This document shows, piece after piece, positions 50,106-58,837 of a stretch of DNA of 64,000 bases. The notes under the pieces are model-generated. The model made no database searches, was not told the origin of the DNA, and worked only from the letters and a program-made list of their open reading frames with translations. This DNA comes from Octopus sinensis (taxonomy: Eukaryota). A program made the position numbers and the translations under genes. The stretch covers positions 73,346,001-73,410,000 of the forward strand of contig NC_043008.1 in NCBI RefSeq assembly GCF_006345805.1, read 5' to 3'. Position 1 is the first letter of the stretch, and each line of letters starts with the position of its first letter.

Positions 50106-50450
50106 GGTAAAATGTAATTGATAATAGTAACTGAGGATGCTGAATATATATATACGGAAAAAGGAGAAACCACCTCATGAGAGAAGCTAGGATCACTGGA
50201 CTAGACTAGTTTTGTCGATCAGTTGTAGACTCACCAGCAGTGATCATTGCATTGCTCAGATGGTTTGGCTAAATCGGTCTGTCAGTATATATCTTTAACA
50301 TGTTTACCATATGAATTTATGGTTGATTTAGCAAAATGATGATATGTATACTAAAAATTAATATAGACAGCTAAGCTCAATACAAGACCTTAAAGGAAAA
50401 ATTTAATTCTCACTAACTGTGACTGAGGATGCTGAATAACACCTATATTG
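50106..50450 (-). repeat. Pseudo-LTR remnant with a decayed HHR (50191-50245)
   Basis: Minus strand GATCACTG-CTGGTGA-GTC...GAC-AAAA-CTAGTCTAGTC-CAGTGATC; ACTGAGGATGCTGAATA repeated ~292 bp apart. Confidence 0.6.
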
Positions 50451-50961
50451 CAAGTATGTATATATTGCATGCTTCATAGAGTATTGAGGGTTTAGACTCT
50501 TATTTCTTGCAATGTATTTAGTTTGAACTTCATAGATTTTACATTCAAACCCCACTGGAGGTATGTTTTATCTCCCTGGTTCCAAAATCTAAATAAATTC
50601 ATGTTTCATTTTTCTGCTCTGTATTAAATATCTTTAAGATGATTTTGTATACTTTTCTTTTATAAATATATATTTTGAGTAAGTATTGTATGTATTTATA
50701 TTCTTAGTTCAAACACAATCCATCAGGTTTACTTTGTGTGTTACCTTCCTGTGGTAAATTATAAGACTGTAATTTGATCACGTATTGAGACAGAATATCT
50801 TATGTTATTCATTCAACCTATTTACATTCTACTTTAGTTTTTTCTATTTTGGTGATCAGTAAAATATATTAGTACTTATAGAGGCATATTTGTTAGAATT
50901 TTAAACAAGATGCTTTGCAATATTTGAATCATTTCTTTACATTTTGAGCTGCCAAGCAGGT

Positions 50962-51555
50962 GTGACAAATTTTCTGTATTGACTCAAAGAAAATAGTGTC
51001 TGGTAAAAAGTACTGGAAGGAAGGCAATAGGGAAACATCTTCTTTTACTCTTGTATTCAAATTCTATGACAAGCATCTAGCGGTTATCAAAGAAGCTGCC
51101 AGGAGTTATTCAGTGAAGTGATGGCGCAGGAAAGAAAAAATATACAAATTAAAAAAATACCAGTAATATATCAGGGTTGGTTGAATTAACTATGTCTACA
51201 TGCTATTATTACATGAAAATATCAGATTGCTGCTCTAATCTTTATTGAAGAATGTTTATAATTGTAATATATGATAATAAACATAACGAAGCAAATAGAT
51301 CTGTGGATAGTACAATAAGTCAATACAAGAACACTTACCCCTCACATTATACATAACTATTTACACAACATATAAGTCTAAAAGTAATATCCAGAAACAC
51401 AATGAATAGAGTGGAATTGAACATCTAACACTGTACCCTGCAATGTGAATGACAAATATACAACCACATGGACTCTTTATCATGTCTTTCAATACATGGA
51501 AATAAATATATATATAAACATGACTACGAAGTGCCAAGACGGAATAATTCACACC
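50962..51555 (+). repeat. 594-bp segment duplicated at 54672-55265 (offset 3710)
   Basis: Apparently identical from GTGACAAATTTTCTG to GGAATAATTCACACC in both places; both copies give the same minus-strand ORF text in the track. Confidence 0.93.
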
Positions 51556-52324
51556 AGAGTGAATGCTTGGGTGAAAGACGATGCCAAAATTAAGACAGAA
51601 TTAAAGATTTCATAATGCTTTATACTTTCCAAGTGAGTGAAACTCTTGGAGAAGTTCCACAGCATTTATCAAGACTTTAGAAAAGGTTTACAGGAATATG
51701 GGGGGGGGAAGGTAGTGAATGAGATGAGACAGATTCTGCAAAGTTAGCACGCACACACACACAGCACCTGCACACACATATGTAAAGCTGTATGTATGAA
51801 TTTGCATTGGCTCACAGACACGAAGTCATTTATATAAGTGTATGCATGTGTGTGTTTGTGAGTGTGCATGTGTATGTATGCAAACGAATCACTCCACACA
51901 CACACACAGAAGCATGATTACATATATACATGTATGTAAGTAAGTATATATTTAAAGTAGAGAATTGTTTAAGACGATATAGCTTCCATCAGAATAATAC
52001 TCAGTATGGTTCCAACAATTTGCGATCTGAGTTCAATTCGTACTCAAGTCAAATTTAATTTCATCTTTCTACAGGCAATAAAAATTGTAGTAAGCTAGCT
52101 GGTGGATTGGAGTAAGCGTTGGCATGGGTTGGGGTATCTAACTGGCTCTTTGTATTCTGATGACAACTATAATGGCACTGGACAACGTTGTTAGTGTGGA
52201 ATGGAAAAAATAATCAACAAAACTAGCATACTCCAGCAACTGCTGGTCATCCAGGAAACAAAAGGAATCCTTATCTTATAGAAGGAGATTCTGGATGCAG
52301 AATCATATGGTTTACAATGAACGA

Positions 52325-52394
<70 letters not shown>

Positions 52395-52417
52395 TCACAC
52401 ACACACATATATATATA

Positions 52418-52818
52418 TTCTTTTACTTGTTTCAGTCACTTGACTTCGACCATGTTGGAGCATCCCCTTAATGGGTGTTAGCCGAAGAAGTCGACCCCGG
52501 GCTTAGCTTATTCTTTGTAAGCCTAGTACTTATTCTATCGGTCACTTTTGCTGAACAGTTACGGGGAGATAAACACACCAGCATCGGTTGTCAAGCGATG
52601 GCAGGGGGACAAACACAAGCACACACGCAGAAATACATACGTACATACGTATATATACGATGACCTTCTTCCAGTTTCCGTTTACAAAATCCAATCACGA
52701 GGCTTTGGTCGGCCCGAGGGTATAGTAGAAAACACTTGCACTAGGTGTGACGCACTGGGACTGATCCCGGAACCATGTGGTTGGTAAGCAAGCTACTTAC
52801 CATTCAACCACTCCTGCG

Positions 52819-52822
<4 letters not shown>
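52418..52822 (-). mobile_element. tRNA-derived SINE, family A
   Basis: Pol III A/B-box head on - (GGCGCAGGAGTGG...GGTAAGTAGC...CCGGGATCAGTCCC); shared body with 10122, 44905, 45115 and 57930. Confidence 0.85.
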
Positions 52823-52859
<37 letters not shown>

Positions 52860-53528
52860 CTGTCATGCCTTTGGGTGTCAGAAGTGAAAGTAGAGAAATC
52901 TGACGTCAGACGTCAACTTCGTGTATTTACGTCGTCTTTCGTTTATTTACGCCGTTTATTTACGTACCACTGAAATGCAAGTAAAAGCTTGTATGTATGT
53001 ATGTATGTATGTATATATATATACATACATACACACATATATATAATATACATGTATATATACATATATATATATATTTAATACATACATATATATAATA
53101 TATACATGTATTTTTACCGCCTTTAGTCGTACAAATCGACCCCAGAACTTATTCTATCGGTCTTTTTTCTTAACCACTATACATTATATACATACATACA
53201 AATAGATAGATAGATACACACACACACATATAATAGATATAAAATGTGTACGTGTGTACATTTTTCAGAAAAAAATTCATACATTTTAAATATCAATAGC
53301 ATTTCTCTTATTTTTTACATGAAGTTTTCGAAAAATGAATTTAGAATGTAAAAATCAAATATATCAAATTAATAAACGCAAATTATTTAGAATGTAAAAA
53401 TCAAATATATCAAATTAATAAACGCAAATTATTTTCAAATATCATTTTCAACGGTGAGATTATCAAAATATAAACTTGAAGTTAAGTTTAAAAATAATGC
53501 GATACTCATTCTGTCTTGATACTTATGC

Positions 53529-54317
53529 TCAAATACATGGATATAGCTGTCGAATTTGTTCTATCAACTTCCCGAATATATCATCCTTAAATTCATAGCG
53601 CCACATGAATTCGATGAGATGGGTCTGAAGTAAATTTCTGGCTGTTCCACATTCTCTCCTATTTCGAGTCTTTACGTGTTTCCATAAACATTCTATGTGG
53701 TTGGTTGTGGCAAATGTTACCGGATCAACAAAATTTATAGAATGATTCACGGTCAAATGTCTGTATCCTAGCTGACTGAGTGTATTATACGAACGCCAAA
53801 GGTCGGATATTATTGTTGTACCAGGCAATATACGCTCGCGTATAATCTGTAATAGAGTGTCCGCTGTTCGATTTTCAACTGCCACTAAAATACATCTTCT
53901 ACTATCTCTTTCTAATGCACTAAACACCCATTGCGTTTTAACCCGATGGCCAACATGATATTTTCTCTTAACAAACGCAGTTTCATCTATTTCAACGATT
54001 CTATTGGGTCCTCCCAGTTTAATATTCTGTGCAACATAATATTCTGCACATACATCGCGGCAAAAATTCCTCCAATCGGTTACCGCTACATTTGCTAAAT
54101 GACATTCCTGTCCTATTCCTTTTGCTAAATCTTCTTTGGCCCAGTAAAACAAAATATCTATGATCTGTTGACACTTCAATTTGCTATTTTCTAAAAATGT
54201 TCCTTTTCTAATTGACACGGATTTTCTACAAGGTCTTCCACACGACCATATTATTTCATCAGATATACTTTTTTTCGTTACTTCTCTCATGGTAGCTCCA
54301 CACGATGTACATATTTT
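53529..54317 (-). CDS. Merlin/IS1595 (ISXO2-like) DDE transposase, C-terminal 262 aa of an interrupted gene
   Basis: Zn-ribbon CTSCG...WSCGRPC, LGGPNRIVEIDET, QWVFSALER, ILPGTTIISDLWRSY, HLTVNHS.NFVDP, TTNHIECLW: typical DDE_Tnp_IS1595 motifs with no stops. The first 7 residues of the track ORF come from the inserted TIR. Confidence 0.93.
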   Translation of the reverse strand, partial: KICTSCGATMREVTKKSISDEIIWSCGRPCRKSVSIRKGTFLENSKLKCQQIIDILFYWAKEDLAKGIGQECHLANVAVTDWRNFCRDVCAEYYVAQNIKLGGPNRIVEIDETAFVKRKYHVGHRVKTQWVFSALERDSRRCILVAVENRTADTLLQIIRERILPGTTIISDLWRSYNTLSQLGYRHLTVNHSINFVDPVTFATTNHIECLWKHVKTRNRRECGTARNLLQTHLIEFMWRYEFKDDIFGKLIEQIRQLYPCI

Positions 54318-55733
54318 GGTTAATATAGGGCGTAACAAATATCAGAAAATCAAAAAAAAAATGTGTGTAATAGGTGTAAAACAACTTCCTATGAACGATT
54401 ATGAAAAAAAAAATTCGCGCACGCGAAAGGGGGGTGGGGGAGAGGCCTCGGAAAATTCACATCGGGAAGTTCCGAAAGCGTCTGAGGAGCTGACCCGGGC
54501 ACCAAAACAAAAAAAAAATAGTGTAATATGTGTAAAACAACTTCCTATGAACGATTATGAAAAAAAAAATGCGCTCTCGCGAAAGAGGGGTGGGGGAGAG
54601 GCCTCGGAATATTTATATCGGGAATTTCCGAAAGCGTCTGAACCGGGCACAAAAACAAAAACAAAAACAGCGTGACAAATTTTCTGTATTGACTCAAAGA
54701 AAATAGTGTCTGGTAAAAAGTACTGGAAGGAAGGCAATAGGGAAACATCTTCTTTTACTCTTGTATTCAAATTCTATGACAAGCATCTAGCGGTTATCAA
54801 AGAAGCTGCCAGGAGTTATTCAGTGAAGTGATGGCGCAGGAAAGAAAAAATATACAAATTAAAAAAATACCAGTAATATATCAGGGTTGGTTGAATTAAC
54901 TATGTCTACATGCTATTATTACATGAAAATATCAGATTGCTGCTCTAATCTTTATTGAAGAATGTTTATAATTGTAATATATGATAATAAACATAACGAA
55001 GCAAATAGATCTGTGGATAGTACAATAAGTCAATACAAGAACACTTACCCCTCACATTATACATAACTATTTACACAACATATAAGTCTAAAAGTAATAT
55101 CCAGAAACACAATGAATAGAGTGGAATTGAACATCTAACACTGTACCCTGCAATGTGAATGACAAATATACAACCACATGGACTCTTTATCATGTCTTTC
55201 AATACATGGAAATAAATATATATATAAACATGACTACGAAGTGCCAAGACGGAATAATTCACACCTTGCTCTAAACGACTATCATGAAAAAAATGCGCGC
55301 TCGCGAAAGGGGGGTGGGGGAGAGGCTTCGGAAATTTCACATCTTCAGTCCACGGCCTTTAAACTAAGAAAAAATAGTGTAATTGGTGTAAAACTACTTG
55401 TTCTAAACGAGTATCAAGAACACACACTCACACATGAATCATAAACTCCGTATTTCGCAAAAAAAATAATAAAGAGAAGAAATTTTTTTGTCATATTCGT
55501 TTAGAGCAAGTTGTTTTACACATATTACACTATTTTTTTTTTGTTTTGGTGCCCGGGTCAGCTCCTCAGACGCTTTCGGAACTTCCCGATGTGAATTTTC
55601 CGAGGCCTCTCCCCCACCCCCCTTTCGCGTGCGCAAATTTTTTTTTTCATATTCGTTCATAGGAAGTTGTTTTACACCTATTACACACATTTTTTTTTTG
55701 ATTTTCTGATATTTGTTACGCCCTATATTAACC
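54318..55733. mobile_element. Non-autonomous TIR element (Merlin-type) inserted in the transposase gene
   Basis: About 226-bp near-perfect TIRs beginning GGTTAATATAGGGCGTAAC; 8-bp TSD CATATTTT at 54310-54317 and 55734-55741; subterminal repeats CGCGAAAGGGGGGTGGGGGAGAGG. Confidence 0.92.
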
Positions 55734-55741
55734 CATATTTT

Positions 55742-55858
55742 CTGGGTATTCAAAAGGCCATGTCTCTTAAGCCAATTAATGCTATCTGCTGTTGTAGCAG
55801 TGGAGACAGCAATATCGCGGTGACTAATTCCTCTTAAACTTGGATATGCAAAAGCCAT
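55742..55858 (-). CDS. N-terminal 39 aa of the same Merlin transposase (MAFAYPSLRG...NWLKRHGLLNTQ)
   Basis: Joins in frame (…NTQ-KI-CTSCG) to 54317 once the insert and one TSD copy are removed; WL..HGLL precedes the Zn ribbon, as is usual in this family. Confidence 0.85.
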
Positions 55859-55996
55859 ATTAAAAATTGTGGTGGTCAGTGGTCATTCTGATTGGTGTAT
55901 GTAATCGCGGTGATGGTCATGGGGGTTCATTTGTGCAGATTTTGGTGTGATTTCTTTTTTAAAAACAATAATGAATAATGCAAGAATAAATATATT

Positions 55997-56969
55997 CAAA
56001 AAACTACGGAGAAAATACAAATTTATACATAAATTATTAGAGAGTTATCCACTATGTGGATAACTCTAGTGCTAAAAATAGCTCCGAAGCAACCACAGAG
56101 GATCTGTTTCCAACTAGAATCGACATACATTTAACGGAAGGAAAGTGAAATACAACGAATAAAATAGATTGACTCTATACAATTGTTTCATTACTAATGT
56201 AATATGTAGTTTTAAATCTTCGGTAGAGTTTGTCAGAAATGCAATTAATTAGATCGATTCGAGCGTCAAAAACACGAGCGGTCCAACCAATTACATTTTT
56301 AGTTATGTCTCAAATTCCGCGCCAAAAGCATGCCTAGACTCCATTGGAAACGTATGCCGCATCAAATAAAATATTAACTGCCGCATAGTTAAATTTATAA
56401 AATTATAAATGAGGGTGAAAAATCGATATTAATTTAATAATACCATTAATTTAACACCAAGTGGCTTAGCACAAAAAACTACGGAGAAAATACAAATTTA
56501 TACATAAATTATTAGAGAGTTATCCACTATGTGGATAACTCTAGTGCTAAAAATAATGGTATTATTAAATTAATATCGATTTTTCACCCTCATTTATAAT
56601 TTTATAAATTTAACTATGCGGCAGTTAATATTTTATTTGATGCGGCATACGTTTCCAATGGAGTCTAGGCATGCTTTTGGCGCGGAATTTGAGACATAAC
56701 TAAAAATGTAATTGGTTGGACCGCTCGTGTTTTTGACGCTCGAATCGATCTAATTAATTGCATTTCTGACAAACTCTACCGAAGATTTAAAACTACATAT
56801 TACATTAGTAATGAAACAATTGTATAGAGTCAATCTATTTTATTCGTTGTATTTCACTTTCCTTCCGTTAAATGTATGTCGATTCTAGTGGAAACAGATC
56901 CTCTGTGGTTGCTTCGGAGCTATTTTTAGCACTAGAGTTATCCACATAGTGGATAACTCTCTAATAATT

Positions 56970-56978
<9 letters not shown>
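55997..56978. mobile_element. Pseudo-LTR fold-back: arm ~55997-56446, partial direct repeat 56472-56552, inverted arm ~56555-56978; HHR-like motifs at 56173-56228 (-) and 56774-56829 (+)
   Basis: Near-perfect ~420-bp inverted repeat; CTCTA-CCGAAGA...GAAAC-AATT-GTA-TAGAG; internal hairpin AGAGTTATCCAC-TAT-GTGGATAACTCT. Confidence 0.85.
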
Positions 56979-57031
<53 letters not shown>

Positions 57032-57929: not shown

Positions 57930-58180
57930 GTCATCGTATAGATACGTATGTACGTATGTATTTCTGCGTGTGTGCTTGTGTTTGTCCCCCTGCCATCGCT
58001 TGACAACCGATGCTGGTGTGTTTATGTCCCCGTAACTGTTCGGCAAAAGTGACCGATAGAATAAGTACTAGGCTTACAAAGAATAAGCTAAGCCCTGGGG
58101 TCAACTTCTTCGGCTAACACCCATTAAGGCGATGCTCCAGCATGGTCAAAGTCAAGTGACTGAAACAAGTAAAAGAATAT
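57930..58180 (+). mobile_element. SINE family A 3' half; inverted duplicate of the 52418 copy
   Basis: Shares private variants with 52418-52664. Confidence 0.85.
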
Positions 58181-58215
58181 ATATATATGTGTGTGTGTAT
58201 ATATGTATTCGTTCA

Positions 58216-58744
58216 TTGCAAATACCGATAGGGCACAAAAAGTGTGTCAATAGCCAGCTGGAGAAGATGTTCTCCTGGGGCTACAAGCTACAGTAACATC
58301 CACCCTTAATGGTTAGCCATATTTAGATGGCAAATATACTTCACATTGTCGTGCAGTTACTGTCTATACCTCGTTCAGAGATTTATTATTGCTTGTATAC
58401 ACTTTTTCAAGATCAGTGACGAAAAGTCACTGGAAAAAGGATATATGTATTTGCATTGGGACCCTTCCATCGAAAACCGGTGATTGTCGTGCGCTGATGA
58501 CGGGTCAATACCCAAAAGCTGCAGTCCGTGCGTATCACTTAGGTTGACGAGGGAAGGATGACCTCCCTTTGCAAATACTGACAGGGCACAGAAAGTGTGT
58601 CAATAGCCAGCTGGAGAAGATGTTCTCCTGGGGCTACAAGCTACAGTAACACTGAACCTTAGTGGTTAGCCATATTTAGATGGCAAATATACTTCATATT
58701 GTCGTGCAGTTACTGTCTATACCTCGTTCAGAGATGTATTATTG

Positions 58745-58747
<3 letters not shown>
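58216..58747 (+). repeat. 1.5-unit tandem repeat (353-bp period) containing a degenerate HHR (58489-58531)
   Basis: 58216-58394 repeats at 58569-58747; GTGCG-CTGATGA-CGGGT-CAAT-ACCC-AAAA-GCTGCA-GTC-CGTGC. Confidence 0.7.

Positions 58748-58837
<90 letters not shown>

What the first reader, a model, noticed from the sequence alone, without database searches (positions are those of the whole stretch)
50962..55265. Pack-Merlin-like capture: 594 bp of neighbouring DNA inside the MITE
Seen: 54672-55265, inside the TIR element, matches 50962-51555, which lies 3.71 kb away outside the element, and it interrupts one of the element's internal repeat units. The outside copy is bounded by GGTGTGA...TCACACC. 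Inference: local templated capture (gap repair or template switch), as in Pack-MULE/Pack-TIR elements; I know of no well-described Merlin case. The direction of copying cannot be determined from this window.
Basis: partly seen in the sequence, partly recalled or inferred. Interest (0 to 1): 0.7.

Follow-up and report, generated by a model that had tools for sequence, protein, structure and literature searches.

The report
Merlin transposon carrying copied neighbouring DNA
One copy of a Merlin "jumping gene" family holds an exact 594-base copy of non-coding DNA from 3.7 kb away, found nowhere else in the assembly, likely pasted in while a break was being repaired, which is an ordinary and well-described kind of event.

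Summary
Observation confirmed. 54672-55265 equals 50962-51555 (594/594) and these are the only two copies in the genome. The insert sits in a 1,416-bp non-autonomous Merlin element (54318-55733, 8-bp TSD CATATTTT) that itself splits a Merlin transposase gene. The family (430 exact ends; 1.9 kb, 621-bp TIRs, constant core) lacks the segment: 50 of 50 arms are uninterrupted. An autonomous partner with an open IS1595-type transposase exists. Direction is solved: the outside copy is the donor. The acceptor lost 16 bp, with 2-bp and 1-bp microhomology; the same copy also has a 1.08-kb deletion and a private unit-to-unit conversion patch. Best reading: one recent template-switching gap repair, i.e. 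a single-copy Pack-TIR (Tan 2021) or repair-mediated duplication (Pace 2009). Both junctions are single-copy, so it has not moved since. No Merlin case is in Tan's list, but the cargo is non-coding. Caveat: contigs of two public runs stop exactly at the right junction but run through the left one, so misassembly of a deletion haplotype is not excluded (about 15-20%). Low interest.

The parts
50962..51555 (+). Donor segment, 594 bp, 31% GC, non-coding host DNA
   Evidence: continuous with both flanks in runs X16 and X4; two 69-71% relics elsewhere span its left boundary; no ORF over 80 aa, no Rfam match
50959..50965 (+). GGTGTGA, inverted partner of TCACACC at 51549-51555; resembles GGTGTAA of the arm units
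   Evidence: chance 123 of 20,000
52856..55997 (-). Host Merlin element (end GGCACTGTC), other TIR missing in this copy
   Evidence: full copy L168 has 810-bp TIRs, 8-bp TSD, 301-aa ORF
53529..54317 (-). Host transposase, downstream part (262 aa, PF12762 E 3e-18)
55736..55858 (-). Host transposase, first 41 codons
   Evidence: 19 of 19 other host loci have the empty site
54310..54317 (+). Left TSD CATATTTT
54318..54671 (+). Left arm, family positions 1-354, with 156-bp repeat units
54544..54555 (+). Private patch: unit-1 sequence, with this copy's private T, written into unit 2
   Evidence: four bases found in 0 of 58 other arms at those columns
54672..55265 (+). Captured copy; replaces 16 bp of the arm (family 357-372); GT shared at left, C at right
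   Evidence: each junction occurs once in the genome
55266..55484 (+). Rest of left arm (family 374-592), then a deletion of about 1.08 kb that removes the core
55483..55733 (-). Remaining 251 bp of the right TIR
55734..55741 (+). Right TSD CATATTTT

Best explanation
A young non-autonomous Merlin element that sits inside another Merlin's transposase gene carries a 594-bp exact copy of host DNA from 3.7 kb away, likely written in by one template-switching gap repair (SDSA type) of a break in this copy. Inferred course: after excision by the partner transposase (slightly favoured) or a hairpin-induced internal break, synthesis from the left end slipped once between repeat units (the patch), left the element at position 356, copied the nearby donor via a GT microhomology, returned at position 373 and annealed early to the right end, losing 1.08 kb. 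Shown: acceptor and donor roles, 16-bp loss, single copy, the three scars. Inferred: break, trigger, single event. The product keeps both ends and would be mobilisable but has not moved in this assembly; the cargo has no sign of function.
For: Only two copies. 50 of 50 family arms uninterrupted at the site; 29 of 29 complete relatives share another core. 0 of 62 two-ended relatives with a foreign insert over 25 bp. Junctions single-copy. Donor continuous in runs X16 and X4 and under old relics. X4 differs at 7 of the 594 sites while the two window copies differ at 0, so the event is recent. Contigs of X1 and X15 end exactly at 51555. Length, distance, deletion and microhomology fall at or next to the published ranges: RDs up to 619 bp, under 5 kb, deletion 1-15 nt, microhomology 2-9 nt (PMC2671141); 56.9% of Pack-TIRs under 15 kb, median microhomology 2 bp (PMC8277862). 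Partner with open 316-aa frame and 97.5-97.8% arm identity.
Against: In X1 and X15 the same contig runs unbroken across the left boundary 50962, where a real left junction should also branch; no junction contig is among the rows shown (35 pieces and 8 loose ends were not shown). Contig depth does not show a clear 1.4-fold rise. Microhomology this short arises in 2,630 of 20,000 random joins. 100% identity is also what an assembly error gives. The three scars could be separate events; internal deletions are common in the family.
Confidence: 0.74

Rival explanations
1. Assembly chimera: the animal is heterozygous for a 3.7-kb deletion that joins 51555 to arm position 374, and the left junction, hence the duplication, was made by the assembler.
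For: X1 and X15 contigs stop at 51555 but not at 50962. One-ended copies are common: 8 of 37 top-scoring relatives. Identity is 100%.
Against: The two junctions lie only 16 bp apart on the arm, a clean insertion with a small target loss, which layout errors would not be expected to give (inference). No N in the window. Logan contigs are simplified graphs that can drop short links to high-copy repeats (passage; the detail is my recall). A right-junction-only allele is also the predicted product of recombination between the two real 594-bp repeats.
Confidence: 0.17
2. Motif-guided capture: the transposase or the broken ends picked the donor because both its ends carry GGTGTGA in inverted orientation, like the GGTGTAA motif in each arm unit that was lost at the break.
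For: Inverted 7-mer at both ends, chance 0.6%; the lost 16 bp contain AGGTGTAA and the donor starts AGGTGTGA.
Against: Neither junction uses the full motif: GGT was not copied, there is no TSD at donor or insert, and the target lost bases. One case, noticed after the fact.
Confidence: 0.06
3. The 594 bp is itself a small element or the normal family core that inserted at both places.
For: GG-starting 7-bp inverted ends.
Against: Two copies only; the family core is a different 683 bp; no TSD; old relics and other individuals run across the outside boundaries.
Confidence: 0.02

Closest known systems
Single-copy Pack-TIRs (Tan et al. 2021, PMC8277862)
   Same: Non-TE sequence of 100-5,000 bp inside one TIR element, donor in cis under 5 kb, short microhomology, small target loss, single copy
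   Different: Merlin superfamily (none in their 370); family is young with a partner that has an open transposase frame; the copy also lost 56% of its length; cephalopod-type genome
Repair-mediated duplications (Pace et al. 2009, PMC2671141)
   Same: TE interrupted by a copy of DNA found at one other place within 5 kb; microhomology plus deletion; identical donor and acceptor in the youngest cases; polymorphic
   Different: 594 bp is near their maximum (619 bp), deletion 16 vs 1-15 nt; they studied vertebrates
Merlin/IS1595 superfamily (as summarised in Lopes et al. 2021, PMC8101967)
   Same: GG termini, 8-bp TSD, internal tandem repeats, DDE_Tnp_IS1595 partner
   Different: Family TIR of 621 bp exceeds the quoted 24-462 bp
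Plant Pack-MULEs and Drosophila Ssk-FB4 (as described in PMC8277862)
   Same: Host DNA between long TIRs
   Different: Those are often multicopy, trans-derived and carry gene fragments; this is single-copy, cis, non-coding

Membership tests
Merlin superfamily | TIRs begin with GG | tested here: met
   GGTTAATA at both ends
Merlin superfamily | 8- or 9-bp TSD | tested here: met
   CATATTTT here; exact 8-bp TSD in 21 of 29 complete relatives
Merlin superfamily | Autonomous partner with DDE_Tnp_IS1595 transposase | tested here: met
   L207 and L209: 2,904 bp, near-identical ends, 8-bp TSDs, 316-aa open frame over the PF12762 cut-off; L194 relative E 6e-17
Merlin superfamily | TIR length 24-462 bp (descriptive range) | tested here: not met
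   621 bp in the family; 449 bp shared with the partner. A range, not a hard criterion
MITE | Short (under about 800 bp; recalled) non-coding element | tested here: not met
   Standard member about 1.92 kb; non-coding and high-copy are met
Pack-TIR (Tan 2021) | Internal non-TE sequence 100-5,000 bp between two parts of one element, both termini present | tested here: met
Pack-TIR (Tan 2021) | Unique parental copy, at least 90% identity, length ratio 80-120%, no gap | tested here: met
Pack-TIR (Tan 2021) | No TE within 100 bp of the parental copy | tested here: inconclusive
   Two 69-71% relics overlap the left flank; no TE library to name them
Pack-TIR / RD | Both junctions exist in DNA | tested here: inconclusive
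   Right: contigs end at 51555 in 2 of 4 runs; left: no break in 4 of 4
Repair-mediated duplication (Pace 2009) | Donor within 5 kb, deletion or microhomology, no polyA tail or TSD at the insert | tested here: met
   3.1 kb gap, 16-bp loss, GT and C shared
Pack-MULE-type (mobile, genic) | Further copies with distinct TSDs | tested here: not met
Pack-MULE-type (mobile, genic) | Cargo from a gene or transcribed | tested here: inconclusive
   No ORF over 80 aa, no Rfam match; RNA runs not examined, so a UTR or small exon is not excluded

The most novel reading that the evidence does not exclude
A nascent Pack-Merlin whose cargo was chosen by sequence: Merlin transposase bound the inverted GGTGTGA motifs that bracket the donor, mimics of its own arm motif, and brought that DNA to the break; the element keeps intact ends and a live partner, so it can spread host DNA, and its 594-bp direct repeats already spawn a 3.7-kb deletion allele.
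Probability: 0.06. Interest if true: 0.6.

Novelty: new member of a known kind. Interest (0 to 1): 0.22.

Why it matters
If real, it extends gap-repair capture (Pack-TIR, RD) to the Merlin superfamily and to a cephalopod-type genome, and it is caught very early: zero differences, absent from at least two other runs, in a family that likely is still mobile. It is a clean worked example of three repair scars in one foldback element. It does not reveal a new mechanism, and the cargo shows no function.

Tried and rejected
Segment as family core: rejected. Segment as high-copy repeat or own mini-transposon: rejected (no TSD). Later transposition of the packed copy: none. Other captures in the family: none in 62 two-ended copies; 16 one-ended copies showed no local duplicate at the break except a short tandem in L094, and could hide inserts beyond the flank fetched (the second 40 loci were picked for odd length or missing ends). 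Host transposase as the mobiliser: rejected, its ends differ (GGCACTGTC) and its close relatives lack the arms. Microhomology as proof: not significant (13%). Contig depth as copy number: 59.3 (X1) and 51 (X15) against 36-52 for unrelated contigs in the same runs; uninformative. No depth at 51562-51690 in X1 and X15: a hole, no evidence. Coding or RNA role of the cargo: none found. Paper searches: 'Pack-TIR'+'Merlin' 0 papers; searches gave nothing relevant. No reads were laid over the element itself, and no raw-read run was laid.

Full report
Observation. 50962-51555 and 54672-55265 are identical at 594 of 594 bases, in direct orientation. A search of the own genome (2.7 Gb) returns these two places only. 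The inner copy lies in an element 54318-55733 with ends GGTTAATA...TATTAACC and an exact 8-bp TSD, CATATTTT. Earlier scan notes call this genome an octopus (not tested here).

The family. An exact 28-base end occurs 430 times, control 0, so roughly 200 or more young elements. Of the 37 other top-scoring elements, 29 are complete (1,492-1,941 bp) and 21 of those have an exact 8-bp TSD. The standard member is about 1.92 kb: 621-bp TIRs built on 156-bp units around one shared core of about 683 bp (29 of 29). None holds the 594 bp. At the insertion site 50 of 50 arms that carried both anchors (of 58) are uninterrupted. In 77 loci, 40 of them picked for odd length or a missing end, 62 two-ended elements had no foreign insert over 25 bp (57 by script, 5 more by eye) and 16 were one-ended within the flank fetched.

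It is a Merlin. L207 and L209 are 2,904-bp elements with the end GGTTAATATAGGGCG, 8-bp TSDs, 97.5-97.8% identity to the arm over 449 bp and an open 316-aa frame that passes the PF12762 cut-off. This matches the definition quoted in PMC8101967 (passages): GG termini, 8-9-bp TSD; the 621-bp TIR exceeds its quoted range. The element has landed in codon 41-42 of a different Merlin's transposase; 19 of 19 other host loci show the empty site.

Anatomy of this copy. It keeps arm 1-356, loses 16 bp, carries the insert with GT and C shared at the joints, resumes to position 592, then loses about 1.08 kb including the core, and ends with 251 bp of the right TIR. At 54544-54555 four bases found in none of 58 other arms turn unit 2 into unit 1, including this copy's private T. 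Three scars within about 370 family bases, in a copy with only a few private substitutions, suggest one repair with several template switches (inference).

Direction and age. Two diverged relics elsewhere (69% and 71%) run across the left boundary of the outside copy. Run X16 holds 50320-51690 in one contig and X4 crosses both boundaries. So the outside copy is the donor. X4 differs at 7 of the 594 sites, the two window copies at none, so the copying is recent. Each junction occurs once in the genome: no later transposition.

Is it real? Four runs of contigs were laid on the donor. In X1 and X15 one 1,474-bp contig ends exactly at 51555, which points to a branch at the right junction; X16 and X4 run through. 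Against my reading, the X1 and X15 contigs do not break at 50962, and no junction contig is among the rows shown. Logan contigs are simplified graphs (preprint 10.1101/2024.07.30.605881, passages; its supplements are closed and may give the settings), so a lost left link is possible, but so is a haplotype that has only the right junction. That could be a deletion allele behind an assembly chimera, or the collapse product of the real duplication. I leave 15-20% for misassembly. X1 and X15 may be the assembly's own source and are not independent of it or perhaps of each other.

The bracketing motif. GGTGTGA...TCACACC has a chance of 123 in 20,000 and resembles the arm motif lost at the break, but it is only partly copied and there is no TSD. 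The microhomology is at chance level (2,630 of 20,000). The cargo is 31% GC with no ORF over 80 aa and no Rfam match; RNA was not examined.

Comparison. Tan et al. 2021 (PMC8277862; abstract, introduction, first results sections, methods section 14 and passages read) found 370 Pack-TIRs, nearly all single-copy, 56.9% under 15 kb from the donor, median microhomology 2 bp, numbers tracking superfamily size. 'Merlin' occurs in its 12 supplements only as a column head, not in the 372-row list (one storage road gave no answer). Pace et al. 2009 (PMC2671141; first two parts and passages) describe 824 human duplications of up to 619 bp within 5 kb with deletions of 1-15 nt. A search for 'Pack-TIR' with 'Merlin' found no paper; searches added no Merlin case; PMC13282606 (passages) lists 2 recently active Merlin families in an octopus and no capture. 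Feschotte 2004 was not seen. Subscription papers are not searched.

Verdict. A real-looking, very recent, single-copy Pack-TIR or repair-mediated duplication in a Merlin element: a new member of a known kind, with non-coding cargo and one unconfirmed junction. Interest 0.22.

Noticed in passing
L164:2722-6092, L165:2882-6217, L166:2579-5945, L167:2783-6245 (four chromosomes' loci; relatives of window 52856-55997): Whole-element palindromes of the host Merlin, 3.3-3.5 kb, with two divergent transposase genes, the same centre and distinct 8- or 9-bp TSDs in 4 of 4 examined, so they likely moved as a unit; other copies have TIRs of 126-810 bp. Only L165 showed an open 301-aa frame. Possibly more interesting than the finding itself.
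   Followed up: partly
window 55980-55997: The host element in the window stops at the sequence that forms the centre of those palindromic copies; its other TIR is not in the rest of the window or the next 9.9 kb.
   Followed up: partly
window 55997-56986: A 972-bp near-perfect foldback made of a 490-bp-unit repeat family that forms direct and inverted arrays across the genome (1,452 first-look candidates).
   Followed up: partly
window 53529-55858: Merlin nested in Merlin: the element interrupts an otherwise open transposase frame of another Merlin family.
   Followed up: yes
L034, L038, L040, L044, L046, L049, L059, L060: 8 of 37 top-scoring family copies have one end only, with no N at the break, which suggests that the foldback element breaks often.
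   Followed up: partly
L194:3263-5427 (about 200 kb upstream on the same contig): Relative of the partner family with an open 300-aa Merlin transposase and arms 88-94% alike to the element.
   Followed up: partly
L094:3388-3640: A truncated copy followed directly by a second 26-bp end and a 113-bp tandem duplication.
   Followed up: no
window 52397-52664 and 57930-58198: Inverted 97% pair of SINE-like repeats (label recalled) that brackets the whole nest.
   Followed up: no
window 58216-58399 and 58569-58752: 184-bp direct repeat, 94% alike.
   Followed up: no
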